Shown piece after piece: positions 1,605-62,660 of a stretch of 64,000 nt of DNA. Position 1 is the first letter of the stretch. Each line of letters opens with the position of its first letter. The stretch is from Rhina ancylostomus. Lineage: Eukaryota. The stretch is taken from contig JARFYF010000054.1 of the NCBI GenBank assembly GCA_030265395.1, positions 24,925,264-24,989,263 of the forward strand, written 5' to 3'. The notes under the pieces are model-generated. The model did not search any database. It saw only the letters and a list, made by a program, of their open reading frames with translations, and was not told where the DNA came from. The position numbers and the translations under genes are program-made.

Positions 1605-1735
1605 AAGACTGCTGAAAATCTGAAATAAAAGCAGAAAAAGCAGGAAACTCTCAGCAGGTCAAGAGCATCTATGGAAGGAGTAACAAAGGTAACATTTCAG
1701 GTCAGAGACTCTTCATAAGCAAGGAACAAGAGATA
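1605..1735 (-). mobile_element. Penelope pseudo-LTR copy
   Basis: Reverse of the pseudo-LTR tail; minus strand gives CTTATGAAGAGTCTCTGACCTGAAATGTTACC (decayed hammerhead-like motif). Confidence 0.6.
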
Positions 1736-2764: not shown

Positions 2765-3290
2765 CAGCTTAACAATCTTTTTTTGTCTCCTTCTCACTTC
2801 TGATGACTGGTCTTCAACCTGAAACATTAACTCTGTTTTTCTACTCATAGCTGCAGCCTGACCTGCTGAGTATGTCCAGCATCTTCTGTTTTTATTTTGA
2901 ATTCTCCAACTTTAGGTCACTTGCTCCTTCTTTCTATCTGTTTCAGAATGAGCTATTTCTGCCAGTGATCCATCTGTGATTTTGGCTCCATTTTTCTCTC
3001 TCTATTACTACAGTCTAACCTGCTGGACATGTCCCATAGCCCTGCTATTAGCACCATCTATTAGACAAATAAAAAGAAGAAGAATCTGTGTCTAAATGTC
3101 ACATTTACCCATTTGGTCTCACCCTGTCAGAGATATTGCCTTTGATTTCTGCAACTTAAAACTAACTTGTTTTCTCTCTTTCCCAGTTCTGACAGAGTCT
3201 CAGACTTGAAACAATAACTCTCTTTCACTTTCCACAGACACTGCCTGGCCTGCTGAGTGTTTCCAGCGTTTTCTGTTTTTATCTCAGTTC
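2765..3290 (+). mobile_element. Two tandem Penelope pseudo-LTR copies with decayed hammerhead motifs
   Basis: CTGATGA...GAAACATTAACT at 2800-2832 and CTGACAGAGTCTCAGACTTGAAACAATAACT at 3189-3219, each followed by the shared pseudo-LTR tail. Confidence 0.65.
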
Positions 3291-4725: not shown

Positions 4726-5193
4726 ACTGGATGGCTACAGTAACAACAGCAGGAAATGGAAAATGTTGCAAAAACTAAGCAAGTCAGGTTTACCTTTTCA
4801 GTATTTTCCGTTCTCTGTTTTTTCCTTATCCTGCACATATACAGTAAGTTTGAACTGCAGGACAAGTCCCACCTCCATGTGATAAGGTGGACTTCTGATA
4901 AGATGGACTCTTAACCTCACAATCTACCTCGTTATGACCTTGCACCTTATTGTCTACCTGCACTGCACTTTCTCTGTAACTGTAACATGTTAGTCTGCGT
5001 TATTTTATCCTGTACCACCTCAATACACTGTGGTATTGATCTGTACGAACGGTATGTAAGACGTTTTGCACTGTACCTCAGTACAAGTGACAATAATAAA
5101 CCAATTTACCAATTCTCAAAGAGGATCGCGAGAGCTCTTGCTCCTTTAATGCTTTGCCCAACAGTTATTATCCCTCAGCCAACAGAGTAAATT

Positions 5194-5404
5194 GCAACAA
5201 ACAATCTGCTGGAGGAACTCAGTGGGTCAAGCAGCATTTGTGGGGGTAAAGGAACTGTCGACATTTCTGATACAGGGTTTCCATTTGAAACGTTAATGAT
5301 TCCCTCCCACCCCCCCGCCCCCCAGATGCTGCTTGACCCACTGAGATCTTCCATGAGGCTGTGTGTTGCTCTAGATTCCAGCATCTGCAGTCTCTTGTGT
5401 CTCC
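5194..5404. repeat. Fold-back Penelope pseudo-LTR element
   Basis: CTCAGTGGGTCAAGCAGCAT pairs with ATGCTGCTTGACCCACTGAG; central CTGATAC...GAAACGTT remnant. Confidence 0.75.
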
Positions 5405-6427: not shown

Positions 6428-6619
6428 GACACAAGACTGCAGATGCTGGAATCTGGAGGAAGAAACAAACTGCTGGAGGAACTCATCAGGTTGAGCAGCA
6501 TCTGTGGAGGCAAAGGGATGGTTGATGTTTCAGGTCATGCCCTGAATCAGGACTGGGAATGTAAAGGGATGATAGCCCGTATAGGGGTGAGACAGGGGCT
6601 GGTAATGGAATCAGAGTGG
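6428..6619 (-). mobile_element. Penelope pseudo-LTR copy
   Basis: AGACTGCAGATGCTGGAATCTGGAG...; minus strand gives CAGTCCTGATTCAGGGCATGACCTGAAACATCAAC. Confidence 0.65.
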
Positions 6620-8257
6620 NNNNNNNNNNNNNNNNNNNNNNNNNNNNNNNNNNNNNNNNNNNNNNNNNNNNNNNNNNNNNNNNNNNNNNNNNNNNNNNNN
6701 NNNNNNNNNNNNNNNNNNNACCTCACAATCTACCTCGTTATGACCTTGCACCTTATTGTCTACCTGCACTGCACTTTCTCTGTAACTGTAACACTTTAGT
6801 CTGCATTCTGTTATTGTTTCCTCTTGTTCTCCCTCAGTGCACTTATAGCGAATTGATCTGTATGGACAGCATGCAAAGCAAATTTTTCACTATACCTTGG
6901 TACATGTGACAATAATAAACCAATTTGCCAATTTACCATAGCATTAACAACTTATCATGCAGGCCTAGTAGCTTAATGTGCTAATAACTGTCCCCATTAA
7001 CCCATTTTGACTCGTCCTACAGGCTTTGCTCTATACATCCCTACTCTACCTTCCCTCTGACTGAAGACCTGCTTGATTCTGTCTTCCTCAGTTCTGACGA
7101 AGGGTTGCAGACCCAAACACAGATTGTTTCTCTTTCCACAGATGCTGCCTGATTTTCATCAGTTGGAAACTGATGGCAGTCATCAGGTATATAATTGAAA
7201 AAAGGCCCATGTATAATGATATGGTGAATGGAGAGGCCATGTTTAAGATGTAAAAGATGCAATGCTTAGAGCGGAGACCAGGATTACAGTGAAATCTATG
7301 GAGTACATAAAATTTGCAATGTGCCTCAGCCAACCAAATGTCCACTGATCCACAGGTGATCACTCAATGTATCAAATCAGTTTAGAAACAGATGGGGTAA
7401 ACCAAGAGGAAATATTTAATCAATTGAGTTTTCTTATCTCTGGGCCAATAAGCTCTCTTAGATTGGTGGGTCCAATGCAATCAATCTGCTGCTGATATCA
7501 CTCCTGACTGTTCATCAGCAGCACAAGGTGAGGGCAGGTACTCTGTGAGGGATCCTTTACTATCAGGCAGTGTGTCAGCTCAGGCTATCCTTCCAATGCG
7601 AGGCCTGTGTGAGAACCAAGAACCTCTTCAGATCTGACCTGAATTCAATGGTAATTTGAGAAAACTGACAGGTTACTGGAGGTGTTGCTGAGGATTCTGG
7701 GTGTTTCAGATAAAAGGGCGCATGCTGCAGATCACGCATGCACAATCGTGTTTGTTCTGCACAAGTTTCAGTTGGAGCCTTTCGCTTGCAGCTTGCAGTT
7801 CCAAGAATCTGCAAGAAATCCCAGCTGTGGTATGAATATGTTGGGTGGGGCGAGTTAACCCAGTTGTATCACTTCGAGCAAGAAATACAACAGCACAAAC
7901 CCACACCCTCAGCACGTGCATGGGACTATTTACCTACACTGTTACATCACTGCAAGTGAAGTACTCAGTAGCTTTCATTGACAGATAATTGTGCAATAAT
8001 TTACTAATTGTAGTTGTCATTGCTTTGCTTGAACAACTACAAATTTCTTGTACAAACAGTGTGAATTCATCACTTATCAGGAAGGACGATAAAAGTACAT
8101 GTCAACATAGAACAGTACAGCAGAGAAACAGGTCCTTCTAGTAATTAAATGTCTAATAAATTAATCCCTTCTGCCTACACAATGTCCATATCCCTCCATT
8201 CTCTGCATATCCATGTGCCTATCCAGGAGTTCTCTTAAACAACTCTATTGTATCAGG

Positions 8258-8842
8258 AACAAGGGTGATGAACTTAGACCATGGCTACGTACTTGGAACT
8301 ATATTGTGGTGGTCATTACAGAGACTTGGCAGTAGCAAAGGCAGGAGCAGCTGCTGGATATTCCAGGGTTTAGATGTTTCAAAAGGGGCAGGGATGGAGG
8401 TAGAAAAGGCTTTGCTGATCAGGGACAGTGTCACAGCTGTAGAAAGGGAGGACATCCTGGAGGGATCGTCTGCTGAGTCAGTGTGGGTGGAAGTCAGAAA
8501 CAGGAAGGGAGCGATCACTCTATTGGGAGTATTCTACAGACCCTCAGTAGCAGCAGAGACACTGAGGAGCAGATCGGGAGGCAGATTTTGGAGAGGTGCA
8601 AAAATAACAGGGTTGTTGTCATAGGTGATTTCAACTTATCTAATATTGATTGGCATGTCCTTAGTGTAAAGCGGATAATTGTAGTGGAGTTTGTTAGGTG
8701 TGTCCAGGAAGGATTCCTGACACAATCTGTGGACAGGCTGACTAGAGGAGAGGCCATACTGGACCTGGTACTCGGCAATGAGCCTGATCAGCTTTCAGAT
8801 CTCTCTGTGAGAGAGCATTTTGGAGATAGTAACCATAACATT
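8258..8842 (+). mobile_element. CR1 LINE ORF2 endonuclease fragment
   Basis: ESVWVEVRNRKGAITLLGVFYRP, frameshift, then VVIGDFNLSNIDW...TRGEAILDLVLGNEP...EHFGDSNH (APE motifs). Confidence 0.9.
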
Positions 8843-10875
8843 GGAGGGGCATAGGAGTAGACTATANNNNNNNNNNNNNNNNNNNNNNNNNNNNNNNNNN
8901 NNNNNNNNNNNNNNNNNNNNNNNNNNNNNNNNNNNNNNNNNNNNNNNNNNNNNNNNNNNNNNNNNNTCCTACCTATAATAGGGCGACCAGAATTGAATGC
9001 AGTACTCCAGATTCAGCCTAACTAGAGTTTTATAAATGTCCCTTAGATTTACTTATCTGCAAGTGACCTGAATACTATTGCCTGGGTCACAGTCTCTCCA
9101 ACCATACATCTGTAAAGTTGACATTTGCTCAAACTGATACAGTTCTTTAAATGCAACAGGTAGGAACTGACAGCATTACTCCTCTTCAGGAAGCTTCTGC
9201 TAAATACATGATACCATTTTCTATAGGTTTATACAGGGATAGAAATTGCATTACATAATACAACATTTTCTTTGGAAAACACTTTTAAGCTGAAAACTTA
9301 TTGTACGTACTTTAAGAAGTTGTTTCATGGCCCGTTATACTAATGACATTCATGACTGACCTCACTGTTACAACATTCTAGGTTGAAAACTTGTTTCAGA
9401 AACTGGAGGATGTAGACCTGCTACAGACTCTTAGCCCTACCCAAGCCACCCTATGGGGGTCTACCACTGAATCAAGAACTGGAATCTCTGCACATGATGC
9501 CGATATCTTCTATCGCTGAGTCCTTCTTTGTTCTGGATAAAGAATCCACATGGTGACCATCCTAGCTCCCGGTGCCCACTTCTACAATGTCCAATCAGCA
9601 GTCAGAGAACTGAGTTTCTGGTCCAATCAAGTAACTGCTAAATAAGGGCTAATCTGCCCCAAAGCTGCCCCACTACATGAAGGGGCAGTTGGCAACTGAA
9701 TTCTCAATGGATATGGAGAAGAAAAAGATAATGTTAGTTATTTGTTTTAAATTATCTATTTATGCTTTAATTCATGTAATGTTTTTAATTACTCACTTTA
9801 ATTTTTTAATTATTTAGGACAATGTTAGTATTTTCCAACAGCCATGACTTGCTTTGAGAAGGCACCAGACACCACTCCCACATTTTCTTCTACTGAAGGC
9901 AGTCAAGGCAATCTGGGGTGAGGGTCTCAGGGGTACACAGGCTGAGGCCTTGCTATGTCTTGGTGACTGACCCTGGGTTTGGGAGGTCTGAGACAATTTG
10001 ACCCATGCTTCTGTACCAGGTTAGTATGGGGCTGGGGGGAAATGCGCAGGTGAATCCAGGCATAGGGATGCCTTTTGGTTCAGGGGACCATAAATATTGA
10101 GGATCCAGAAACCAGCTACGGACCAAATGTGTCGAGGTTCACATCTGTCGTAACCACCAGGTCAGGATGCACATGGGAAAAGACTCAACAGTCTATTGAA
10201 AAAACTGCAAAGAAAGTTTAGGTGAACATATCAGCATACAGATTAGATGTAGGAGTAGGGCACTTCTTCCCTCAAACCTACTCTGTCATTTATAAAGGTT
10301 ATGGTTGATCTGATTATAACACTCGCATTCCAGTGCACTCACAGGAACCTTTCACTGTCATACTTATCAAAAATCTTTCTGCCTCTCCACTGAAAATTTT
10401 TATTCTCCACTTCCAATTTAAAGAGTTTCCAAAGACACACAACTCTGAGGAAAAAAATGCCTTGTCTCTGTCCTAAACTGGCAACCTTTTATTCTTAACC
10501 ATTGAGCCTTAGATCTTGATTTGTCCACAAGAGGAAATATTCTCTTCACATCCACCCTCTCAAGACTCTCCAGGACTTTGTTATAGATCCTAAATGAAAA
10601 TAATTATGCTAAGAAAATAATTAATTAAGAATTTTTAATTAAAATCATGCATGTATATCATTAAATTAAATGGAATGCAAATTTGCCATAGAAAATTTCC
10701 ACATGCCATTTGTAAGCTTAAAGCTTAAAAGTACCCGTTGGTGCTGGCTTATGGAAATGCTTCATGGGAGCTTTATTCGAACTGATTTAAGGATCCCAAC
10801 TCAGCTCCAGCACTGAACGCCCACAGTCACCACTAACCTATAAAACTGGCCAAACTCATCTCTTGCTTGGAAGCA

Positions 10876-11058
10876 TGGAGACTGCAGATGCTGGAATCTG
10901 GAGCAAAAAACAAAATGCTGGAGGAACTTAACGANNNNNNNNNNTTAACGAGTCAGGCAGCATCTGTGGAGGGAAATGGGCAGTTGATGTTTCGGGTCGA
11001 GGCCCTTCATTTGGTCTGAAAAATTAGTGGGGAGATAGCCAGTATAGAGGTGAGAGGA
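10876..11058 (-). mobile_element. Penelope pseudo-LTR copy
   Basis: GAGACTGCAGATGCTGGAATCTGGAGC...; minus strand gives ATGAAGGGCCTCGACCCGAAACATCAACTG. Confidence 0.65.
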
Positions 11059-13364: not shown

Positions 13365-14240
13365 GGTCACACAACATCTGTGAAGAGGGAAACAGTTAGT
13401 GTTCTAGATTTTTCATCGGAACAAATGATACAAGTTACAGAGAAGGAGTAAGAGATGATGTGAGCAAAAGGGTGGGGACCAGGAGAGATTGAATAACACA
13501 AACTAAAATGGGTGGTGAAGGCACGTCTGGAGGAATGTAAGTAGGAGCTGAGAAAAGGCCTGAAATACCATAGCAGGATAAATAAATAAAACAAAATGTT
13601 GGAAGTGTGAAATACAAACTGGAACATCTGGTTATCTGAAATTGTTGAAATACCCTGAAAGGTTCTGAGGCTGCAATGTGTCATATCAGATAGTGAAATG
13701 TTGTTCCTGGGATTTGTCTTGAGCTTTGATCAAATAACATAGGAGACCAAAAATAGAGAGGTGCGACTGGGACTAATTGAAGTAGCAGGCAACTGAAAGT
13801 TTGGGTTCAATGTTGTGGACTGCAAAGCAGCCATCCAATCTGGTTTCTCCAACATGGAGGAGACAACATCATGAACAAGGAATGCGGTACCCAAAGTTGG
13901 AAGAAGCACTACTAAATTGTTCTTTAACAATGGATGGATTGCTTGGGATCCTGGATGAAGGAAGAGGCTTAAAGGGCACATGTGGCATTTTTACCAAGGT
14001 ATGTCTGCCAGAGAATATTTATTGGTGCATAGATACTGAGTATGTAGACAGAGGACACTGGAAATGCTTGGCAGGTCAGGCAGCAACTGCGGGCAATGAA
14101 CCTAAATTATGTTTTAGTTTGATGAACTTGCATCAGGATTGCTATTAAATGTCATCTAATGAAAAGTCACATAAAATATTAACTGTGTTTCTCCCTCCAT
14201 ATATGCCGACTGGTCAGCTGGGTATTTACAGCATTTTCAT
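13365..14240 (-). mobile_element. Degenerate Penelope-like element with pseudo-LTR pieces
   Basis: 13640-13730 resembles the GIY-YIG tail seen at 25830-25920; pseudo-LTR-like segments at both ends. Confidence 0.55.
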
Positions 14241-15069: not shown

Positions 15070-15350
15070 TCAAATCTGGCAGTTAAATGGGTGGCTGAGT
15101 GACTGGTGTAGGGGGCAGGGCTTCAGATTCCTGGACCATTGGGATCTTTTTTGGGGGAGGCATGANNNNNNNNNNNNNNNNNNNNNNNNNNNNNNNNNNN
15201 NNNNNNNNNNNNNNNNNNNNNNNNNNNNNNNNNNNNNNNNNNNNNNNNNNNNNNNNNNNNNNNNNTTCTCCCTCTTATTTCCATTTCCATGGAGCAGGCT
15301 CAATGGGCCAAATGGCCTTCTTCTGCTCCCTTATCTTGTGATATTGTGAT
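15070..15350 (+). mobile_element. CR1 ORF1 (esterase-like) fragment and CR1 3' end on either side of a gap
   Basis: WLSDWCRGQGFRFLDHWDLFWGR before the gap; ATGGGCCAAATGGCCTTCTTCTGCTCC tail after it. Confidence 0.7.
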
Positions 15351-16439
15351 CTTTTGAAATCTCCATGTCCAGGATAATCAGTGATAACACCAGCATTCAG
15401 TTTCTTCCTTCAGGCACATTTGGATTCCAGCCATTTCCATAAGGCTATGTAAACTGCACCAGGATAATGGAGGTAGACCTGAGTATCTGGAAGTACAGAG
15501 GGCATGGCACAGGCTTCACAAGACTAACATTACAGCTCCTGTACATCTGGGTATAAATCCAACATATCAGCTGCAGGAATGAGAAGCTTTACTCTTTATT
15601 CCATTAACATTTCTATTAGTGATTTAGATGTTTCCTTTTGCAACATTTTCCATCAGCTTTTTATGATTCAAAGATAATAAAAATGAGGGATTGGGAGTGA
15701 TAGGAACAGAGGAAGGAAAATTGGAAAATCCTGGAAAATGGACATAGGGATTGCTGTGTACAATAAATTATTGCAGGATATGCTGAGGCAGAGGGGAGGA
15801 AACCCCTATTGGCTCATTCATTAGTATGGTTAGAGCACCCAGCCAGAGCTAATCAAGGGGGCCTGATCTGGGGAGTTGCTCATACCAGTTGAATCTAGCT
15901 TACTTAAAGCCAGCATACATCTGTGAAGGTGCATTGTAGTTTCAGCACATGTTTGAATGAGAATAATCACAACTGTGACTTATAACATCAAGTGGGAGTG
16001 CACATGTTTTCCAATGTTACGTTGGCAGCATTGGTTGAGAAGGTGAGAAGAAGTTTTGCTGGACACAAATTGCAAAGGCACAGAAGGTGAACACCCAGGG
16101 TCAGGGAGCTGGATGCATGCCTGTAAAAAGTTGTAAGTTCACCTGTATTATCGATGCTTTCTCTCTCAATAATTACCACCAACAGTCACTGTCTGTGAAG
16201 ACTTAGGCCACAAACAGTGATATGCTGGGATTGGTATAGGTATGCATGGTGGTCGGCAGGGACACATTGGGCTGAGAGGCCTGTTTCTCTGCTGTATAAC
16301 TCGTTATATTCCTTTGTTTGTGTTCTCTCTTTCTCATTAAGCTGTCAACCAGATGGTTTCATCAACAGCTTATCATGATGGGAACCCAGGTCTCACTCTG
16401 TACAGATTTAACCTCCTATTTAACCTTTTATGCCCTCTC

Positions 16440-16610
16440 TACAACTTAAAATTAACTGTGTTCCCTCCTTCCCAGTTCTGACGAAGGGTCTCAGACCTGA
16501 AATGTTAACTTAGTTTCTCTTTCCACAGAGACGGCCTGATCTGCTGAGTGTTTCCAGCATTTTCTGTTTTCGTTTTAGATTCCAGCAACTGCAGTTTTTT
16601 TTGAATTTCA
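16440..16610 (+). mobile_element. Penelope pseudo-LTR with a minimal hammerhead-ribozyme-like motif (16474-16510)
   Basis: AGTT-CTGACGA-A-GGGTC-TCA-GACCT-GAAA-TGTT-AACT: stem I AGTT/AACT, core CUGANGA and GAAA, stem II. Followed by the family's CTGCTGAGTGTTTCCAGCATTTTCTG...GATTCCAGCA tail. Confidence 0.7.
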
Positions 16611-18319
16611 AGGCTATGAGTGAGGTCTGAGGTGAAAATTGGGAATGTGCATCAAATATATTGCATTAGATCGTCACCCAGACTGGGAGAAGCTGAAAGG
16701 CAACTTTTAGCTTCACAGAAAGCCTGCAGATCTGGAAGTTTTTCCATAGATCTGAGCAGATGACCTTTCGGTCTACAGATTCCAGTCAGTAAAGGGCAGC
16801 CCTGATTTGGCTTGGTACCCACATGTTGCATTCTGCTGGAAGGCTCTGACTACAGATGTACTTAGATTGTGTCTTCAGGTGAACAAGTAGGCGCGGGCCC
16901 CAATCTGAAAGCCCACCCCCAGCAGTTGTGTGACCTTTACTTAACTACAGGATCCTGGGAGACCTCGTGACTTCTATGAATTTGCATAGATTCCAAGCCA
17001 AGCCCACAGAGTTTGCAGGTGAGGAAACCTGTAATTCCTCTATCGCATTTTACAGTATGAATATTCATTGCAGCTACTCCCTGTATCATGCTGAATGTGA
17101 AAAGCTGTGATCCACAATAATTGACTTACACCACCGGGTTTAATTCATCATTAACTTATACCTCTAATCCATTCCATCATGGAATAATATTTAGCTTCTT
17201 TTCTTTCTGCTGCAGTATATTTCTTTTCAAGGCCAGAATAGTTAGCTCAAAATCCAAGACTGACCCATCTACTGTCCTTTGTCCCCTGACATTCTGCTTG
17301 AGAAGGTGCCTCACCATCATCTTAACAAGGGCAATTAGGAATGGGTAATAAATGCTGTCGTTTTCTGTCACACCCCAATTTCAAACCACGATTATTTTTG
17401 TAAGATTGTCACAGTTAAACTGCCCTTGCTATTCTGTTTCATTCTTGTTGTTATTATTACATAAATTACTACAATGTTACATGATCTTGACATTGTCTTT
17501 TATGTCTACAACCCAACACCTTTCTGAATCCTGATTCTCCCCTCTCCCCTTTTATGAATTTAAAACACCAATGCAGAGATAACTTTCTAAAGAGAAATTG
17601 GTTCAAAGTTTTCACTTGACCTTGATACAGTAGATTCCTCCAAGATCAATCTTCTGTTTTAAGTATTTTACAATACTCTTAAAAATATAAGACTTGTCTT
17701 ACATGAACATAATGTTAAACATTTTTGGTATATTTTGGTACCTTAAGTAAAAGAGTTGGATGGAAGTTATAAACTCTGTGTGACCTAGACCCATCATTAT
17801 GTTATTTATAATGTATGGAAGATAACAGGAAGCTCACGGAGAGCTTCTGAAGCCAAAAGCAACAATTTTCTCAAAAATATTTAAGCAGATATTCACCTGA
17901 GGGCAAAGAAGCAGCAAGGTTTTGTGGTTAGAAGAATGAGTTTCCCTCAGCTGTTGCCAAATATAATTCCAAGATTGAATAATATATTTTAACTCTCTTC
18001 TGTCTCTAGGCCAGCTAGATTGATCAGCTAATTTTCTTTTAAGTAGTTAGACCTTCAGCAGAAGTTCCTGGGAATGGAAGATACTCGTGGAAGGTTTGGC
18101 CAGGCTGGGTTGTATTGATGTGGGACTTGGGGGAGGTGGAAGGAAGACTGGCATCCAAATAGGGGAGAGCTCATGGAGGGAGGGACAGGCAGTATGGAGA
18201 AGATTAGAGATGAGAGCCAGAAAACATTGAAGGCTGGAAGCCACATAGTAATCGGACTGGATGCCAAAACAGGCACAAAATCAGCAAGAAAGAAGGTCTC
18301 TTGAATCATTGCCTACATG

Positions 18320-20322: not shown

Positions 20323-21090
20323 GATGGAGGGGAGTTCACTTTCCTCAATCTCTGCAGGAAGTAGAGGTGTTTCTGGGCTTTCTTAATGAGGGCTGTGGTG
20401 TTGATGGACTAGTTCAGGTCATCAGCAATGTACACCCCCAGGAACCTGGTGCTGCTGACTTGTTCCACCACAGACCCGTTTACAGTCAGCGGGGTGTGCA
20501 CACGGCGACCCTTCCTGAAGTCCACTATCCATCTCCTTAGTCTTCTCCACATTCAGGAAGAGGTTGTTATTGCTGCACCACAAGACCAGTTGCTTCACCT
20601 CCTCGCTGTAGAGTGTTTAATCGTTGTTTGTGACGAGACCCACCACTGTCGTGTCGTCGGCAAATTTAACAATGATTGGAGCTGGATCTGGCCTCGCAGT
20701 TGTGAGTCAGCAAGGTGAACAGGAGCGGGCTGAGCACACAGCCCTGAGAGGAGCCAGTGCTCAGTGTGATGGTGCTTGAGGTTTTCTCCCCTATTTTGAC
20801 TAACTGCAGCTTGCAAGTGAGAAAGTCCAGTATCTAGTTGCAGAGAGGTGTATTGAAGCCCAATATGCTCAACTTCCTGATCAACTGTTGTGGGATGATG
20901 GTGTTGAATGTGGAACTGAAGTCGATGAACAGCATTCTGACACATGTATCTTTTTTTTCCAAGTGAGTTAGTGCTGAATGCAGGGCAGAGGATACTGCAT
21001 CATCTGTGGAGCTGTTGGCTTGGTATGCATATTGGGGATCCATGGTTGAGTGAAGGATGGATCTGATGTGCCTCATGACTAGCCTCTCAT
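20323..21090 (-). mobile_element. Rex1/Babar-like LINE RT fragment
   Basis: [53 protein letters not shown] and downstream KF(A)DDTTVVG-like sequence. Confidence 0.85.
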
Positions 21091-21449
21091 CAATGTTGTC
21101 AACTCTTTGTCAACTCTTTCCTTTTCTTCTGTCTCTTCTGCCAGTCCTTTGGTTCAGCATTTGCTCCTCCACAGGTGACATGTTTTCAAAGGTATGATAT
21201 TAATTAGTTTGCAATTTCAGAATTTGTTGTTCTACTGGAAATACTTAAAGCTAGTCTAACCACATTCTGACATGCATTCAAACTAAATGTTATTACTGGT
21301 GAGTAAGCATGATGATTCCTTTGTGTATGAGGTGTATAATTATTGAGTAATCATGAACCATCCCTTCAAGGAATTTCACTTTGAAGAACATAGCCTACTC
21401 ATCAACATTCTTGTAGATTTTATGAGGAGATAACAAACAGGGAACTGCA

Positions 21450-22875: not shown

Positions 22876-24815
22876 CTGTGGAGGGAAATGGACAGTGGGT
22901 GACATGGGCGGAGACACTTCATCCGGACTCTGTCTCTGAAATACAAACATTTTGGATAAAAAAAATGATAATCTGCTTTACTCAAGAGCATGCCTCTTTG
23001 GTAAACAACTGGCACTTTTTGTGCCTTTTGGCATTTGTATTTCAGAGAGCTGGGTGAAGTGATAACGTGAAGCATTTAGATTAAGCCAGCACTCTCATTA
23101 AGTATTGACTCATGCTTTACATTCATCCTAAACATGTAAGCCCGCAGCGTTAAGTTCGTTTTGAAAAACTGCTTCAGATTTCAGTCCCTTCCTTTAGTTG
23201 GGTAAGTTTTGTTCTAGCTCTTTTCCAGTTTAATGAGTTCACCTGCACATTGAAAGGGCGTGTGTCCCATTCTGCTGGGTACTACCATCCAACAGCCTGT
23301 AACAGTTAGATTCAAGATACTGCATCTCTTTTCATTGGCTCAAGAGATAGGAAGGTGTTGAAATAACTTTTTAAATCAAAATAAATAATGCATCCTGGCA
23401 TAGTCAGTGTCTATGAGATTGGCCTGTAAACAACAGACCCCTTCTGAAACATGGTTATTGACCTTCTGAATACTATGTATGGCACAAATGCCAGGGTGAG
23501 GCTGAATGGTCTGGTTTCTTGTAACACTGATGTCTGAAAATGATCAGTATTTTAATGTGATTACCTGCAGAAGGTGCAAGTGTCCTGAGTACCTGCTGGG
23601 ACTATGTTGATGGTCACACAGACTTGTCAGTCCTGCACCAGTTTACCTAATCTGTGGGTGAATGACCACAGTTACCTTTCAGAATATGCTGTATTCAGAA
23701 CATTCAGTATTCCAGATGCTAAGGGGAAGGTTGTTGTTCATCCGCACCCTGTGACGTCCTGGTTTCCGACCAACAAGATAACATTTCAATCCCCATCATT
23801 CTGTGTCGGATTCTGATCATGTATCTTAGCCAGTGGTAACTTTGCAAAACATGTCTTCAACCATGTTTATTGCTGAAAGGGGATCAATTTAATGTACGTG
23901 ATCTGTGGGCAGATTGAGTTAAAATACAGCAACGAGTTGTTGATTCTGAGATCTGAGATGGACCAACTGCTCCATCTTGTGATCGGAGGAGAACTTTCCT
24001 TGTTCCTTGTGTTTCAATATCCAGCATATTGAAATGTTAGTTTTACACCCATCTTCTTTAATGATAACTATTTGTCAGAACCTGTCACTATTTTGTATTG
24101 CTGGCTTTGAATCGCAAGCTAACACATTCAAAAACTTCTACGTCCTTTGGTGGTACAGAATTTACACAAGTTCAACAATGTCTGATTGAAGAAATTTCTC
24201 ATTATTTCAGGCATAAATCCTGAGACTGTGAACCTTGATACTCTATCTATTCCAGCCAGGGGAAACATTGTCCCTGTCAGAACTTTATACATTTCAATGA
24301 GATCTTCTCATATCCTTCTAAACTCTACAGGCCCAGTTGACCCATTATCCCTAAAGACAATCAGGCTGCCATTCATGGAATCAGTCTGTGAAGAAGGAAA
24401 CGATTCTCCATCTGGTGAAATATTGCAAAGTTCTCCACAGGAGCACCATCTGACAATGATTGACAGCGAGCTACAAAAGAACACACTGAATCAGTTCAAC
24501 AATAGTATTTAAGATCTTGAAGCTACTCCAAATTCCAATCTCCAACTACAGCACTGTGTGCAGAAAGAATATTATTCGACTTGAAAGAGAAAACAATCAT
24601 GATTTTGATGGCAGAATTTATGAGAAATAATGAAAACCTTCCTTCTTTGAAAAAGGGTAAACTTTGAAGTAAAATAGTTGACACAATTAAGATTAACAGA
24701 CTTGACTGGGAAGGATTTTTTTTACCTTAAATACCTTGCATGCAGGTAACTTTCAGAAACATCAATTGCCAGTCAATTGGTTTTGTTAAGCCCCTAAAGA
24801 CTTCAGACTGATAGG

Positions 24816-24992
24816 ACACACACAAAATGCTGGAGAAACTCAGCAGGTCAGGCAGCATTTATGGAGGGAGATAAACACTAACTGTTTAACATTGACTGTT
24901 TATTTCCCTCCACAGATGCTGCCTGATCTGCTGAGTTCCTCCAGCATTGTGTGTGTTGCTCCAGATTCCAGCATCTGCAGAATCTCTTGTTT
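24816..24992. repeat. Fold-back (inverted) Penelope pseudo-LTR element
   Basis: ACACACACAAAATGCTGGAGAAACTCAGCAGGTCAGGCAGCATTTATGGAGGGA pairs with TCCCTCCACAGATGCTGCCTGATCTGCTGAGTTCCTCCAGCATTGTGTGTGT. Confidence 0.8.
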
Positions 24993-25419
24993 CAGTGATA
25001 GAAGGAATACCTTTGCACAGGCAATATGCCATATACACAAACTGAGTCTGATAGATGTGCTGAGTGCCTTAACAGGTACGTTAATGGGTAGGGTGACTCT
25101 GGAGAGAGATCTCTGTATCTGGTAGGCATGAAAATGACAAGTTGAACTGGATTACCAGGATGTGCGGGTGTTGAGACAACAGTTGAGCTACTCAATAAAT
25201 TCACAAGCAGCTTAATGCAAAGGATGTGGTGCAGCATGAAAATACACCGGCTGGTTGATCATTTGAAAAAGCTAAATACAATTCTAACTCATCCATCCAG
25301 CAGCAATTTGCAATCCTACCCACACCTTAGGGTACCCACATAGTGCCTTTATTAGTATCAATGCAAAGTCACTCTTTGCCATTTTTTGTACCATGCCCTA
25401 ACAACCTGGTTTGGGCTAG

Positions 25420-26246
25420 AAACAGAAACACTCAGCTGGTCAGGCAGCATATTTAGAAAGAGAAAGGTCATGAATCCACCATTCAAGTGGGAAAGAGTGA
25501 AAGACAGTCAGTTTGAAATCAAAGAGAGAAGGGGGAGGGGTGGATAAGATAAGATAATGGGGGACCTCTGATGGGATGAAACCAGAGCTGCTATGGGGCC
25601 ATTAGATGAAGTCATAAGTTGACACATTAATGAGGGGAAACTAGAGAGAGAACATGAACAAAGGACACAAGAGTTGTGAACTGAGGGCAATTAGAGAGAG
25701 AGAGAGACACAGAACACAGACAAAGGAACATAAAGGCTGCAAAAAGCTGAACTGTCAGAAAAGCCCAGAAGGCCAGGCAGTGTTAGTTGAGAGAGAAAAA
25801 CTAAACCAACGTTACAGAAAAAGTGAGTGACCTGAAGTTTTGGAATTCGATTTTGAGTCCGGAAGGCTGCAATGTGCCCAGGAGGAAGATGAGGTGTTTT
25901 TCCTGCAACTTACATTGGACCTCATTAGAACAGTGCAGCAGGCCACAGATAGATACATCAAGCAGAAGTCAGATGGAGAATTAAATAAAAGGATAGTTCC
26001 ATGGAAAGGTGTCATGAGAAGAAGAATGGTTGGTGGAGATGGAAGAGCACACTAGAGGCAGGGAACAATCCCACTGGAAGACAAATGGGGGGAAGGGGCG
26101 CTGGTGGAGGGAAGATGTGTCAGGTGGTTGAATCTCATTGAAAATGGCAGATATCGTGAAGGAGGATCCATGGAACACAAAAGTTGGTTAGTTGGAAAGT
26201 GAGGACCAGAAGGTTTCTATCCTTGTTCAGTCTGAGAGAGGGGTTG
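25420..26246 (-). mobile_element. Penelope-like element 3' fragment (GIY-YIG C-terminus plus pseudo-LTR)
   Basis: Minus strand at about 25828-25917 translates CKLQEKHLIFLLGTLQPSGLKIEFQNFR, the typical Penelope C-terminal motif, followed by pseudo-LTR-like sequence. Confidence 0.75.
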
Positions 26247-45480: not shown

Positions 45481-45552
45481 TTCTCTGACCGGGAGTCGAA
45501 CCTGGGCCACGGTGGTGAGACTGCTGAATCCTAACCACTAGATCACCAGAGA
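45481..45552 (-). pseudogene. tRNA-Glu(CTC) pseudogene
   Basis: 72 nt on minus: TCTCTGGTGATCTAGTGGTTAGGATTCAGCAGTCTCACCACCGTGGCCCAGGTTCGACTCCCGGTCAGAGAA. About 10 differences from the recalled vertebrate tRNA-Glu-CTC. A and B boxes and the acceptor stem are retained; the anticodon stem has 3 mismatches. Confidence 0.88.
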
Positions 45553-55679: not shown

Positions 55680-56410
55680 ACTGAAACTGCAGATGCCGTA
55701 AACTACAATAAAAACAGAAAATGCTGGAAACACTCAGTAGGTCACACAACAGGAAAAACAAAAGAGAATCAGAATTAATGTTAAATTCAAAGGCCTTTCC
55801 TCAAAACTGGGAAGGAGAGAAATGAAGTTGGTTGTAAGTTGCAGTGCAGGTGGAGGAAGGTTGGATAGAGCAAGGAATATCTCAAATAGGGTGAGGCCAG
55901 GGTTGCAGTAGGCTAAACTGGAAACAAGCCACTCAAAGGATTAATGGCAGTGGTTATGGAGCAAGAGAGAGAGAAAAACCGAACAAAGGAACATAAATGA
56001 AATGAAGTAAAAGCAGTGAGAGAATGACACATCAAACAAAGGGACATAAAGGTTGTGAAATGCAGAGCTGTAGGATGTACCTGCAGGCCAAGCTGTGTTA
56101 ACATGGGGAGTAAAACTGAACCAATATCACTAGCCAGTTCTGATAAAGACAGAATATTTTAACTGAAGCTGCAGAATTCTATATTGAGTCTGGAAGGCTA
56201 CATCTTGTCAGGTGGAAGATGAGATGTGCTTCCTCAAGATTGCATTTGACATCATTATAATGGTGCAGGATAGACCAGAGTGGGACCAGGATGGAGGATT
56301 AAAGTGCCAGGTGAAAGGACGCTCGGGGTCATGCCTGTGACTGAAAGGGCAATGACTTAGTCCACAGAGGCAACCGTGAGTTTCCTGTTGCTCTTTGTTG
56401 GAGCTCGCTG
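55680..56410 (-). mobile_element. Penelope-like element 3' fragment
   Basis: Minus strand near 56160-56250 gives KCNLEEAHLIFHL...RLNIEF (frameshifted). Pseudo-LTR end at 55686-55815 (CTGCAGATGC...AACAGAAAATGCTGGAAACACTCAG). Confidence 0.7.
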
Positions 56411-57755: not shown

Positions 57756-58550
57756 TTATGAGGACTCTTTCCATCTTGTCATACTAGGCAACTGTTCAAT
57801 AGTATTATAACAACAGCAGGATAGAAGCTGTCTTTGAGCCTGGTGGTATGTGCTTTCAGACCTTTGTATCTTCTGCCTATTGGGAGAGGGGAGAAGATGG
57901 AATGTCCGGAGTGGGTGTGTCTTTGATGTTGGCTGCTTTACTGAGGCAAAGAGAAGTACAGACACGGAGAGAAGGTTGGTTTCCGTGATACGCTGAGCAA
58001 TGTCCACAACTCTCTGCAGTTTCTTGCAGTCCCAGGCAGAGGAATTGCCATACGAGCCATAACGGATCCAGATAGGATGCTTTCTATGGTGCATCAATAA
58101 AAATTGGTGAGGGTTGACAAGGACATGCCTAATTTCTTTAGCCTCCTGAGAAAGTAGAGGTGCTAGTTAGTTTTTCTTGCTGTGGCATTTACATGGTTGG
58201 ATCGGGGCAGGCTCTTAATGTTCACTCCTAGAAACTTGAAGCTCTCAATCCTCTCGACCTCAGCACCATTGATGTAGACAGGAGCATGTGCATCATCCTC
58301 CCTCCTGAAGCCAAGAACCAGCTCTTTTGTTTTGTTGACATTGAGGGAAAGGTTGTTGCCGTGACACCATGTCACTATGCTCTCTGTCTCCCTCCTGTAC
58401 TCTGATTCATCATTATTTGAGATATAGCCCACTACTGTGGTCTCATCTGCGACCTTGAAGGTGGAGTTAGAGCAGAATCTGGCCACGCAGTCATGAGTGT
58501 CTAGGGAGTAGAACAGGAAGCTGAGGATGCAGCCTTGTTGGGCACCATGT
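57756..58550 (-). mobile_element. Rex1/Babar-like LINE 3' fragment
   Basis: FKVADETTVVGYISNNDESEYRRE...WCHGNNLSLNVNKTKELV...FKFLGV. Confidence 0.88.
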
Positions 58551-60790: not shown

Positions 60791-61865
60791 ATGGAATTAC
60801 ACAATCCAGAAACTGGCCCTTCAGCCCAATTCATCCATGCTGACCAAGATACCTACCTGAAGTACCATTTGACTGCATTTGGCCCATATCCCTCTAAACC
60901 TTTCCTATCCATAAATCTGTTCAAATGTCTTTTCAACATTGTAATTTTACCCACCTCAACCACTTCCTCTGACAGCTCGTTCCATGTACTCACAACCCTC
61001 TGTGTGGAAAACTTGCCCCTCAGCTCCTCTTTATATCTTTGCCCTCTCAACTTATACCTATGCCCAGTGGCTTTAGACTCCCCTACCCTAGAAAAAACAC
61101 TGTGATCATCCACCTTATCTATTCCAGTCTTGATTTTGTAAAACTTTACAAGGTCACCCCTCAGCTTCCTTCGCTCCAGGGAAAACAGTCCCAGCCTATC
61201 AAGTCTCTCCTTTTAACTGAAGCCTTCCAGTCCAGCAACGTCCTTGTGAATCCTTTCTGCACTGCTTCGAGCATAATTACATCCTCCCTATAGTATGGCA
61301 ACTAGAATCGCACACAACATTCCGAGTGCGGTCTCATCAATGTCCTATAACATGATGTCCCAACTCTTGTACTCAATGCCATCCAATGAAGGCAAGCATG
61401 CCGATCGTCTTCTTCACCACTTTGTCTACCTGCGTCGCCATTTTCAGAGAACTATGTCCTTATACCCCTAGGTCTCTCTGTTCCACCACAGTCACCAGAT
61501 CCTTGAATACACATTCACTTTGTATGGCCTACCCTGGTTTAACTTCCAAAGATGGATCACTTCACACTTTTCAGAGTTAAATTCCATTTGCCATTCCTTT
61601 GGCCACTTTCCCAGTTGATCTAGGTCCTGTTGTAACCTTACACACCTTTCCTCATTGTCCACCACATCAGCAATTTTAGTGATATCTCCAAACTTACTAA
61701 TCATGCCACCTGGAGTCTCATTAATATATGACAATAGCAGGGGTTCCAGCACTGACCCTTGTAGCACACCACTGGTTACTGGCCTCCAGTATGAAAATCA
61801 ACCCTCCACCACCATCCTCTGACTCTTTCCACCAAGCCAATTTTGTATTTAACTGTCCAGCTCAC
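60790..61865 (-). mobile_element. CR1 LINE RT-to-3' fragment
   Basis: LQGSVLEPLL...ISKFGDITKI...LQQDLDQLGKWPKEWQMEFNSEKCEVIH and RGKFSTQRVVSTWNEL. Confidence 0.9.
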
Positions 61866-62524
61866 CAAGGCTTGAACCTTGCAAACATTCCTTATTCTGA
61901 CCTGATGATAGGAGTGTTGGTCATTGATGAAACAGTTGAAGATGTTTGGGTCAGGGCACTACCTTGAGGAATCCCTGCAGTGACAGACGGGGATGATTTT
62001 CCTCCACCAACCAAAATCAAGGGGTGACTCCAGCAAATGGAGTGTTTTCCCATTAGTGACCATGTTCTTCAGTTCTATAGGACTCCTTAATGTCGTGCTC
62101 CATCAAATGTTACCTTGATGTCAAGGACAGTGACCCTCACCTCACCTCCAAATTCAAATGTTTGATCATGTTTGAGCATCCGTGCAGAGATGATTGGTGA
62201 GTAAGTGCCACTTTAGAGTACTGTTGATAACATTTTCCATAACTTTTGGTGATTGTGAGTAGATGATTGAGGGCATAGATGGGCAATTGACAACACTCTG
62301 CTATTGTTGCAACTCTACTGGAAGAACTTAGCTAGAGGTACAGCATGTTTTCAGTACTACAGCCAGGATGTTCTCTGGTCACACTTCCCTTTCAACTTCT
62401 AGTTCTCTCAGACATTTCTTAATGTCACATGGAGTGAACCAAGTTGGATAAAGACAGCCTCAGTGACGTTGAGGATTTCATGAGGAAACTGAGATAGATC
62501 ATCCTTGCAGCACTCCTGCCTGAA

Positions 62525-62660
62525 CTAGACTGATGCAGGGTCTGGACCCAAAACATCAACTTAAATCTTTTGCCTCCACAGATGCTGATTGCCCCACTGA
62601 GTTCTTCCAGTGTTCTGTTTTTGTTCTAGATTCCAGCATCTGCAGTCTTTTTTATCTTCA
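62525..62660 (+). mobile_element. Penelope pseudo-LTR copy
   Basis: CTGATGCAGGGTCTGGACCCAAAACATCAACT followed by the CCACAGATGCTG...GATTCCAGCATCTGCAGTC tail. Confidence 0.65.

What the first reader, a model, noticed from the sequence alone, without database searches (positions are those of the whole stretch)
16474..16510. Dispersed minimal hammerhead-ribozyme motifs in Penelope pseudo-LTRs
Seen: one short repeat family recurs at least 8 times (about 1700 -, 2800 +, 3189 +, 6530 -, 7094 +, 11000 -, 16478 +, 62530 +). Together the copies imply a consensus CAGTY-CTGAYGA-A-GGGTC-N2-3-GACCY-GAAA-CGTY-RACTG. This is stem I, the CUGANGA core, stem II, GAAA, a near-absent stem III with a palindromic ACGT, and the return strand of stem I. 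Established: Penelope-like elements carry minimal type I hammerheads thought to cleave as dimers. GIY-YIG tails beside such repeats here (25830-25920, 56160-56250) support a Penelope origin. Inference: this genome holds a very large population of mostly decayed self-cleaving RNA motifs, and many copies are short and ORF-less like retrozymes. The 16474 copy keeps both core boxes, but its ACGT has decayed to ATGT.
Basis: partly seen in the sequence, partly recalled or inferred. Interest (0 to 1): 0.7.

Follow-up and report, generated by a model that had tools for sequence, protein, structure and literature searches.

The report
Decayed hammerhead relics of Penelope retrotransposon
The motif is real: it is one of very many worn copies of a tiny self-cutting-RNA sequence carried at the tail end of a known class of jumping gene (Penelope-like), an arrangement described in 2014, and this copy is likely inactive.

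Summary
Observation confirmed. 16474-16510 is a minimal type I hammerhead motif inside a 5'-truncated end (about 16304-16603) of a Penelope-like retroelement with Neptune-type protein features. The genome holds 6,808 intact-core matches against 566 for the reversed pattern. Of 17 loci chosen only by the GIY-YIG protein and mostly gap-free downstream, 14 carry the repeat just downstream on the same strand. Three subfamilies keep the core, with one compensatory swap in stem I. Genomic copies decay like neutral DNA, CpG sites first: 1 of 29 unselected copies keeps the full core. The 16474 copy lost one palindrome base, has no tandem partner and is predicted to misfold. No regular tandem arrays were seen, so these are not retrozymes. 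This matches Cervera and de la Pena 2014, and the scan has noted it before in this genome and in others. Two extras. First, 17 of 40 young copies begin at the motif's front edge (lead from earlier notes). Second, splice-site-like signals bracket the spacer between the stop codon and the ribozyme, as in fly Penelope; this is untested. Cleavage was not tested.

The parts
16474..16510 (+). Minimal type I hammerhead motif, 29-nt-core subfamily: 4-bp stem I, CUGACGA, extra A, 5-bp stem II closed by G10.1-U11.1, GAAA, AUGU tetramer (ACGU in intact copies), U17; the predicted cut would fall between 16506 and 16507
16304..16603 (+). 5'-truncated 3' end of the Penelope-like element that carries the motif: part of the pyrimidine-rich spacer, the motif and about 90 nt of terminal repeat; no ORF
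   Evidence: 16300-16470 aligns to the endonuclease-to-motif spacer at 55810-56180 (score 68; best of 300 shuffles 46) and at 25520-25836 (53; best shuffle 46); 3' extent
16455..16475 (+). Polypyrimidine tract ending in CAG inside stem I: looks like a 3' splice site (inferred, untested)
1683..1725 (-). Decayed copy, first box broken
2792..2836 (+). Copy with both boxes, but G16.2 changed to A and stems partly broken
3181..3223 (+). Decayed copy, two bases of the first box deleted
5185..5401 (.). Head-to-head inverted pair of repeat ends (5267-5185 minus, 5259-5401 plus), motif decayed
6516..6558 (-). Decayed copy, first box broken
7086..7129 (+). Decayed copy, first box intact, G12 lost; nearest same-strand copy that spans the motif, 9.4 kb from 16478
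10978..11021 (-). Decayed copy of the younger 28-nt subfamily, first box broken
13644..13889 (-). Third, frameshifted GIY-YIG remnant, followed on the same strand by the repeat at 13421-13334
24796..24994 (.). Head-to-head inverted pair of repeat ends lacking the first core box
25837..25959 (-). GIY-YIG endonuclease C-terminal remnant, followed on the same strand by spacer and a decayed repeat at 25516-25425
56185..56289 (-). Frameshifted GIY-YIG remnant, followed on the same strand by spacer and a decayed repeat at 55842-55677
62519..62653 (+). Decayed copy, both boxes broken

Best explanation
16474-16510 is a minimal type I hammerhead motif in the truncated 3' end of a Penelope-like retrotransposon with Neptune-type protein features; in active ancestors it likely cut the element's RNA weakly and only with help, and this copy, like nearly all others, is likely dead and decaying. 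Steps. (1) Shown: the element's ORF (RT with YIDD, CX4CXXC linker, CCHH GIY-YIG) is followed by a spacer of mostly 300-490 nt, the motif and a 90-140 nt terminal stretch. (2) Inferred from PMC11167929: reverse transcription starts at one of two sites shortly downstream of the motif and often stops early. That would give the many short, ORF-less and often head-to-head copies, whose 3' ends fall loosely into two groups. (3) Inferred: in source elements the motif was kept under selection, since three subfamilies share the core while loop II, the flanks and one stem I pair changed. (4) Inferred from PMC4209133 and PMC11167929: with no stem III of its own it would cut after GUC or GUU only when folded by the element's protein (my odds about 0.5) or by a second copy pairing through the ACGU palindrome (about 0.35); about 0.15 that this lineage's motif no longer cut at all. 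(5) Shown: after insertion, CpG bases inside the motif are lost first, and the core is not significantly better kept than its flanks.
For: Copy number: core pattern 6,808 vs 566 reversed; exact young motif 209 vs 0; the 16474 subfamily 96 vs 0. Linkage: of 46 loci picked by the endonuclease alone, 17 had a mostly gap-free 600 nt downstream, and 14 of these carry the repeat on the same strand, 1 also on the opposite strand; 6 of the 29 gapped or short loci carry it too. All 3 endonuclease remnants in the window are followed by it. L099 holds RT, linker, endonuclease and motif in order. Stem I positions were outside the search patterns, yet pair 2.1/1.1 is C-G in 23 of 34 copies of subfamilies A and B and U-A in 20 of 30 of subfamily C. 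Decay: both boxes in 6 of 29 unselected motif-spanning copies and the full core in 1 of 29; C15.2/G16.2 kept in 35 of 56 cells. In 16 endonuclease-linked young copies the core matches in 162 of 172 cells vs 1190 of 1306 in the flanks (p 0.19), and the full core is intact in 0 of 16. The 16474 copy's preferred fold pairs its first box with loop II, and its dimer-like arrangement scores -5.4 kcal/mol vs -9.7 to -19.3 for four intact copies.
Against: No cleavage assay. Covariation is thin: it rests on essentially one event. In one search (36 hand-picked of 77 core loci plus the 16474 copy), 16 cells with double change vs 9.6 +/- 3.0 shuffled (4/500), but pairs with double change 3 vs 2.8 (324/500), and stem II shows none. 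Rfam finds no hammerhead, and intact monomers fold only mildly better than shuffles (z -1.3, -1.1 and +0.1). The energy model prefers other duplexes over the active-like dimer for all five motifs tried. A mixed-subfamily comparison did show the core better kept than a downstream block (233/254 vs 532/632, p 0.002). I attribute this to subfamily divergence in that block and to a profile trained on intact cores, but it points the other way. Pfam support for the endonuclease is below cut-off (18.7 bits vs 22.6), and the RT fragment had no Pfam hit; it was placed by tblastn to another element of this genome (E 5e-33). No full-length element with both terminal repeats was found.
Confidence: 0.88

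Rival explanations
1. The short copies are non-LTR retrozymes: an independent non-autonomous element that spreads as tandem repeats processed into circular RNA.
For: Most copies lack an ORF, and 17 of 40 young copies start at the motif's front edge, so they look like a unit. A 2026 preprint reports retrozymes in one cartilaginous fish and derives retrozymes from Penelope-like elements (10.64898/2026.07.22.740005, passages).
Against: No array: TRF finds only short-period repeats in the window, and 2 of 30 close same-strand pairs have two intact cores, both across assembly gaps (one is an identical 69-nt overlap). The motif is the minimal form, whereas retrozymes carry canonical type I hammerheads (PMC7229834, passages). 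The same repeat runs continuously into endonuclease ORFs. Caveat: the assembly has gaps at repeats and could have collapsed arrays.
Confidence: 0.04
2. The 16474 copy is a host-kept (domesticated) ribozyme acting on a host transcript near mir-142.
For: It is the best-kept motif in the window. It differs from its subfamily's usual form at only one core-adjacent base. The insertion is present in a second organism's contig covering 16103-16498.
Against: 6 of 29 unselected copies keep both boxes, so one such copy among ten is expected. The palindrome is broken by a CpG-type change, there is no partner within 8 kb, and the predicted fold buries the core. It lies on the strand opposite to mir-142, and no host exon was found among 116 long frames.
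Confidence: 0.03
3. The motif was kept in source elements as a folded signal (protein-binding site, transcript start or splice site), not as a working ribozyme.
For: The anole hammerhead was dispensable for insertion in vitro, and no reads ended at its cut site (PMC11167929). The 16474 subfamily carries G10.1-U11.1 (TG in 89 of 118, CA in at most 8, so not CpG decay) and GUU (92 of 96) rather than the G-C pair that PMC4209133 calls highly conserved. Copy 5' ends pile up at the motif's front edge.
Against: All catalytic-core bases and the palindrome are shared by three subfamilies whose flanks differ, which a mere hairpin signal would not need. The anole motif did cut with protein, and C3/G8 mutants lost this.
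Confidence: 0.15
4. Chance: a hairpin in an abundant repeat that happens to resemble the hammerhead boxes.
For: No Rfam hit and weak folding z-scores.
Against: Both boxes, the extra base after A9, G10.1, the palindrome and stem I all occur in the order that PMC4209133 describes, at the place expected in a Penelope-like element.
Confidence: 0.01

Closest known systems
Minimal type I hammerheads (min-HHR) in pLTRs of metazoan Penelope-like elements (Cervera and de la Pena 2014, PMC4209133; parts 1-2 of 4 read, supplements not seen)
   Same: Short stem I, extra base between positions 9 and 10.1, no stem III, palindromic 15.2-16.2, thousands of dispersed single motifs in several subfamilies, found in fish Xena, Poseidon and Neptune elements.
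   Different: The text I read names fishes, coelacanth, Xenopus and reptiles, and no shark or ray; its supplements might. The 16474 subfamily has G10.1-U11.1 and GUU. Stem II is 4-5 bp.
Neptune (or Nematis) clade of endonuclease-bearing Penelope-like elements (Craig et al. 2021, PMC8557442; passages)
   Same: C-terminal GIY-YIG with two cysteines inside the motif, a CX2-5CXXC linker, inverted truncated copies and a hammerhead in the terminal repeat.
   Different: No tree was built, so Neptune vs Nematis rests on motifs alone. No full-length copy was recovered.
Anole Poseidon element PAc (Frangieh et al. 2024, PMC11167929; parts 1-2 of 4 read)
   Same: Hammerhead in the terminal repeat just upstream of two 3' end groups, about 30-40 nt apart.
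   Different: Different clade (Poseidon lacks the linker finger). Its activity was measured; nothing was measured here.
Metazoan non-LTR retrozymes (Cervera and de la Pena 2020, PMC7229834; passages)
   Same: Short, ORF-less, with a type I hammerhead, and probably moved by Penelope-like proteins.
   Different: Retrozymes are 150-450 bp tandem arrays with canonical hammerheads and circular RNA. These are dispersed or inverted ends with minimal motifs.

Membership tests
min-HHR of metazoan Penelope-like elements | CUGANGA and GAAA boxes in type I order | tested here: met
   16478-16484 and 16499-16502; 6,808 vs 566 genome-wide
min-HHR of metazoan Penelope-like elements | Stems I and II pair, with compensatory change between subfamilies | tested here: met
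   84% of cells paired vs 16-48% when slid; one compensatory pair in stem I, none in stem II
min-HHR of metazoan Penelope-like elements | Extra base between 9 and 10.1 | tested here: met
   A16485; A in 25 of 29 unselected copies
min-HHR of metazoan Penelope-like elements | Palindromic 15.2-16.2, no stem III | tested here: met
   ACGU is the majority form in unselected copies (C in 21 of 29, G in 14 of 29 with A from CpG decay). The 16474 copy itself has AUGU, which allows only wobble pairs
min-HHR of metazoan Penelope-like elements | G10.1-C11.1 pair (highly conserved, not stated as invariant) | tested here: inconclusive
   G-C in the exact young motif (209 copies); G-U wobble in the 16474 subfamily (89 of 118 TG, at most 8 CA). 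Its effect on activity was not found in the papers checked
min-HHR of metazoan Penelope-like elements | Lies in the terminal repeat of a Penelope-like element | tested here: met
   14 of 17 endonuclease-picked loci; 16304-16470 is homologous to the spacer of an endonuclease-linked copy
min-HHR of metazoan Penelope-like elements | Self-cleavage (dimer or assisted) | not testable with these tools
   needs a bench assay
Neptune-type EN+ Penelope-like element | RT followed by a C-terminal GIY-YIG endonuclease with the CCHH motif | tested here: met
   L099 and L102 translations; Pfam GIY-YIG E 0.002, below cut-off; Atlas clusters at 0.96-0.97 carry GIY-YIG in 13-56% of members
Neptune-type EN+ Penelope-like element | CX2-5CXXC finger in the RT-EN linker | tested here: met
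   CX4CXXC in L085, L089 and L099; criterion from PMC8557442
Neptune-type EN+ Penelope-like element | ORF flanked by two pseudo-LTRs (partial tandem) | tested here: inconclusive
   not seen in 20 10-kb loci or in the 4 candidate pairs L104, L105, L208, L209; gaps interrupt many
Neptune-type EN+ Penelope-like element | Placement in the Neptune clade on an RT tree | not tested
   no reference set at hand; no tree built
Non-LTR retrozyme | Head-to-tail tandem arrays of 150-450 bp units | tested here: not met
   gaps could hide arrays elsewhere
Non-LTR retrozyme | Canonical type I hammerhead with stem III and loop contacts | tested here: not met
   minimal form without stem III; no Rfam hit
Non-LTR retrozyme | Abundant circular RNA | not testable with these tools
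   needs RNA data

The most novel reading that the evidence does not exclude
The four bases at the ribozyme's front edge do triple duty. They form stem I, they end a 300-490 nt spliceosomal intron that starts at the ORF's own stop codon, and they mark where about 40% of young copies begin. Splicing or a transcript start there would then set the element's RNA end and reshape stem I, a switch suggested for fly Penelope and here shared by a vertebrate Neptune-type lineage across subfamilies.
Probability: 0.25. Interest if true: 0.5.

Novelty: new member of a known kind. Interest (0 to 1): 0.17.

Why it matters
As it stands it is an ordinary instance of a known arrangement. Its use is as material: thousands of sequence-intact motifs in three subfamilies of different age, in one vertebrate genome, let one ask what the Penelope hammerhead does. 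That question is still open: the 2021 paper calls its function unclear, and the 2024 paper found it dispensable in vitro. If the intron and front-edge reading held, it would tie splicing, the RNA's 5' end and the ribozyme's state together in these elements.

Tried and rejected
Rfam scan at E up to 10: no hammerhead family hit. Search for RNA runs holding 15300-17300: no RNA holder listed; this says nothing about expression. The two contig sets laid cannot show RNA ends. Search for spliced genomic copies (endonuclease end next to the motif): 5 hits vs 1 control, none with endonuclease upstream, against 2,667 unspliced endonuclease ends. L126, with only 22 nt between the two, does not join at the predicted sites. 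This neither supports nor excludes the intron, since Penelope-like elements retain introns (PMC3846280, passages). Search for a full element between two motifs: L104 and L105 hold no ORF between them, L209 has an endonuclease end only before the first motif, and L208 is an identical overlap across a gap, likely an assembly duplicate. A Pfam GIY-YIG search of the genome returned 5 matches from other element families, with no such motif in the loci fetched. One search had a column-offset bug, and its numbers were discarded and redone. The 5'-end histogram over unselected stretches (110 copies) was not used for the edge test, because other subfamilies stop matching the young-family profile at the same place. 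No host exon was found among 116 frames of 75 aa or more; only LINE-type RT and endonuclease pieces and weak hits below cut-off. Paper searches for hammerhead + shark, Penelope + cartilaginous fish, Penelope + shark + Neptune and Penelope + skate listed no paper on this motif in sharks or rays (listings only; the library lacks most subscription journals and Repbase). A search for data on G10.1-U11.1 gave nothing usable.

Full report
Setting. The window is G000:C54:24925264-24989263 in a 2.2 Gb assembly with many N gaps. It holds mir-142 at 28785-28869 (-), and an Spt4 gene lies about 118 kb further along on the same strand. The host is therefore a jawed vertebrate (inference; the range of mir-142 is recalled). 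That it is a shark or ray comes from my recall of such repeats and from earlier scan notes and was not tested here.

The observation. They give a 4-bp stem I, CUGACGA, an extra A, a 5-bp stem II with a 3-nt loop, GAAA, then UGUU and the return strand. A profile from 17 genome loci finds 20 copies in the window and none in the reversed window. A broader profile gives 20 hits in 61,009 non-N bases of the window, 35 in 152,780 bases of neighbouring DNA and 24 in 171,473 bases from 20 arbitrary places, with 0 in each reversed control. The last figure, 140 per Mb, extrapolates to roughly a quarter of a million fragments; this is a rough inference from a small sample. A pattern with only the two boxes and ACGTH matches 6,808 places against 566 for the reversed pattern. 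Rfam has no hammerhead hit in the window.

Subfamilies. Three forms recur. A has a 28-nt core, N7 = U, cut triplet GUC and 209 exact matches to one pattern. B has a 28-nt core, N7 = A and GUU. C has a 29-nt core, with 96 matches; the 16474 copy belongs to C. The first stem I pair lay outside the search patterns. It is C-G in 15 of 24 A copies and 8 of 10 B copies, and U-A in 20 of 30 C copies. That is a true compensatory change but a single event. On a hand-picked alignment (36 of 77 core loci, leaving out gapped or clearly truncated ones, plus 16474) 84% of cells pair, against 16-48% when partners are slid. Double-changed cells exceed shuffles (4/500), the number of such pairs does not (324/500), and stem II has none. 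In C the base before G12 is T in 89 of 118 copies, with the mirror CpG product (CA) in 4 of the 100 listed and at most 8 overall. The G10.1-U11.1 wobble is therefore the subfamily's own state, as is GUU (92 of 96). The 16474 copy departs from its subfamily's core-adjacent positions only at C15.2.

Origin. Each is followed on the same strand by the repeat. The DNA upstream of the 16474 motif aligns with the spacer behind the 56185 tail (score 68, best of 300 shuffles 46) and behind the 25837 tail (53 vs 46). It ties the best shuffle for L149 (46) and shows nothing with two other spacers. An endonuclease read from L008 finds 33,841 first-look candidates in the genome, of which 150 were scored. 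Of 46 loci picked by that protein alone, 17 had a mostly gap-free 600 nt downstream; 14 of these carry the repeat on the same strand and 1 also on the opposite strand. Of the 29 gapped or short loci, 6 carry it. [quoted passage not shown] By the criteria in PMC8557442 (passages) this is Neptune- or Nematis-type; no tree was built. No complete element with both terminal repeats was recovered.

State of the copies. Among 29 unselected motif-spanning copies, 6 keep both boxes and 1 keeps boxes plus CGUH. The CpG positions C15.2/G16.2 are kept in 35 of 56 cells and G12 in 15 of 26. That call also showed non-CpG core positions better kept than a downstream block (p 0.002), but the block differs between subfamilies and the profile was trained on intact cores. 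Restricted to 16 endonuclease-linked subfamily A copies, the difference is 94% vs 91% (p 0.19), and none keeps the full core. This fits selection on source elements and neutral decay after insertion. For 16474, the predicted best fold pairs the first box with loop II (z -0.24), and the palindrome can form only U-G wobbles. An active-like dimer scores -5.4 kcal/mol against -9.7 to -19.3 for four intact copies, although other duplexes score better for all five. The nearest same-strand copy spanning the motif is 9.4 kb away and has lost G12. A contig from a second organism covers 16103-16498 with 7 other letters and one gap, so the insertion likely predates that split.

How it likely worked. Cervera and de la Pena (PMC4209133, parts 1-2 of 4 read) describe this architecture in Penelope-like repeats of fishes, coelacanth, frog and reptiles. 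They found no cleavage by a single motif and low cleavage by dimers. Frangieh et al. (PMC11167929, parts 1-2 of 4 read) found that the anole motif cut only when the element's protein was present, that cutting was not needed for insertion, that no public reads ended at the cut site, and that reverse transcription starts at two internal sites which define the 30-40 nt tail. Here the 3' ends of young copies fall loosely into groups near +90 to +110 and +125 to +140 from C3, which fits that model. My reading is weak, assisted cleavage in source elements and none at 16474.

Not retrozymes. Retrozymes are tandem arrays with canonical hammerheads and circular RNA (PMC7229834, passages). TRF finds only short-period repeats in the window. 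In 211 loci (1.04 Mb, some overlapping) there are 253 motif-spanning copies and 30 same-strand pairs under 1 kb; 2 pairs have two intact cores, both across gaps. What is common is the inverted pair: 28 of 79 unselected hits have an opposite-strand copy within 250 nt, and 4 of 79 a same-strand one. Inverted repeats are a known Penelope layout (PMC3846280, passages).

Two extras. First, a lead from earlier scan notes, which I tested. Among 40 gap-free subfamily A copies found by core patterns (9 with a gap at the 5' end were dropped: 3 of 24, and the flagged rows among 28 were likewise left out), 17 begin between -10 and +2 of C3, 6 between -90 and -11, and 17 extend further (binomial p about 1e-10; two separate sets gave 9 of 21 and 8 of 19). 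Copies that start inside the motif are excluded by design, so this shows a drop just upstream of the motif, not a peak relative to positions within it. Second, the ORF's stop codon overlaps GTAAC: G, T, A, A appear in 39, 43, 44 and 42 of 65 endonuclease ends, rows that include gaps, duplicates, frame slips and a few other families. An AG after a pyrimidine tract sits 4 nt before C3 in 12 of 14 spacers. In D. virilis the intron's end maps to the 5' end of helix I. Against this reading: the whole spacer is about 80% pyrimidine; similar pyrimidine-AG stretches recur downstream of the motif; an Arg codon before TAA gives GTAA by itself; the AG is also part of stem I; and no spliced genomic copy was found. 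The same bases also resemble an Initiator element (motif recalled, from no call).

Verdict. Real, correctly identified and ordinary: a further genome's example of the minimal hammerheads of Penelope-like elements, noted by this scan before in this genome (6 notes) and in others (22 notes in at least 9 genomes). Four paper searches listed nothing on this motif in sharks or rays. Supplements of PMC4209133 and of the 2026 preprint, which I did not see, may cover it. Interest 0.17.

Noticed in passing
window 28785-28869 (-): mir-142 precursor, Rfam 105 bits; an Spt4 gene lies at G000:C54:25071720 on the same strand.
   Followed up: partly
endonuclease-to-motif spacers, e.g. L056, L062, L149; window 25837-25520 (-): GTAAC overlaps the ORF's stop codon and a pyrimidine tract plus CAG ends inside stem I, like a 300-490 nt intron; no spliced genomic copy was found.
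   Followed up: partly
subfamily A loci L001-L047 and L180-L207: 17 of 40 gap-free copies begin within -10..+2 of the first core base; 4 of the 8 such copies checked have an inverted copy directly upstream.
   Followed up: yes
29-nt subfamily, L124-L152 and window 16486/16498: G10.1-U11.1 wobble and GUU triplet are the subfamily's own state, not CpG decay; the effect on activity is unknown.
   Followed up: partly
subfamily B, e.g. L037, L031, L042: Stem I has an A-C mismatch at the fourth pair in 6 of 10 copies: the A of the CAG is kept although its partner changed.
   Followed up: no
window 5185-5401, 14049-14237, 24796-24994, 30918-31076: Head-to-head inverted pairs of the repeat; they account for the weak MIR2275 and MIR2118 Rfam hits.
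   Followed up: partly
L049, L051, L053 (contigs C35029, C27946, C12343) and L050, L052: Other GIY-YIG elements with open frames up to 377 aa on short unplaced contigs, unlike the family studied; possibly young elements or foreign DNA.
   Followed up: no
L208 (G000:C7:74622926-74623126): Apparent tandem dimer of intact motifs is an identical 69-nt overlap on both sides of a 100-N gap, likely an assembly duplicate.
   Followed up: yes
window 45481-45552 (-): tRNA-like hit, Rfam 30.7 bits, just above the gathering score; possibly a SINE head.
   Followed up: no
window 8477-8851 (+), 20837-21109 (-), 58166-58549 (-), 61495-61797 (-): Fragments of LINE-type endonuclease and reverse transcriptase.
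   Followed up: no
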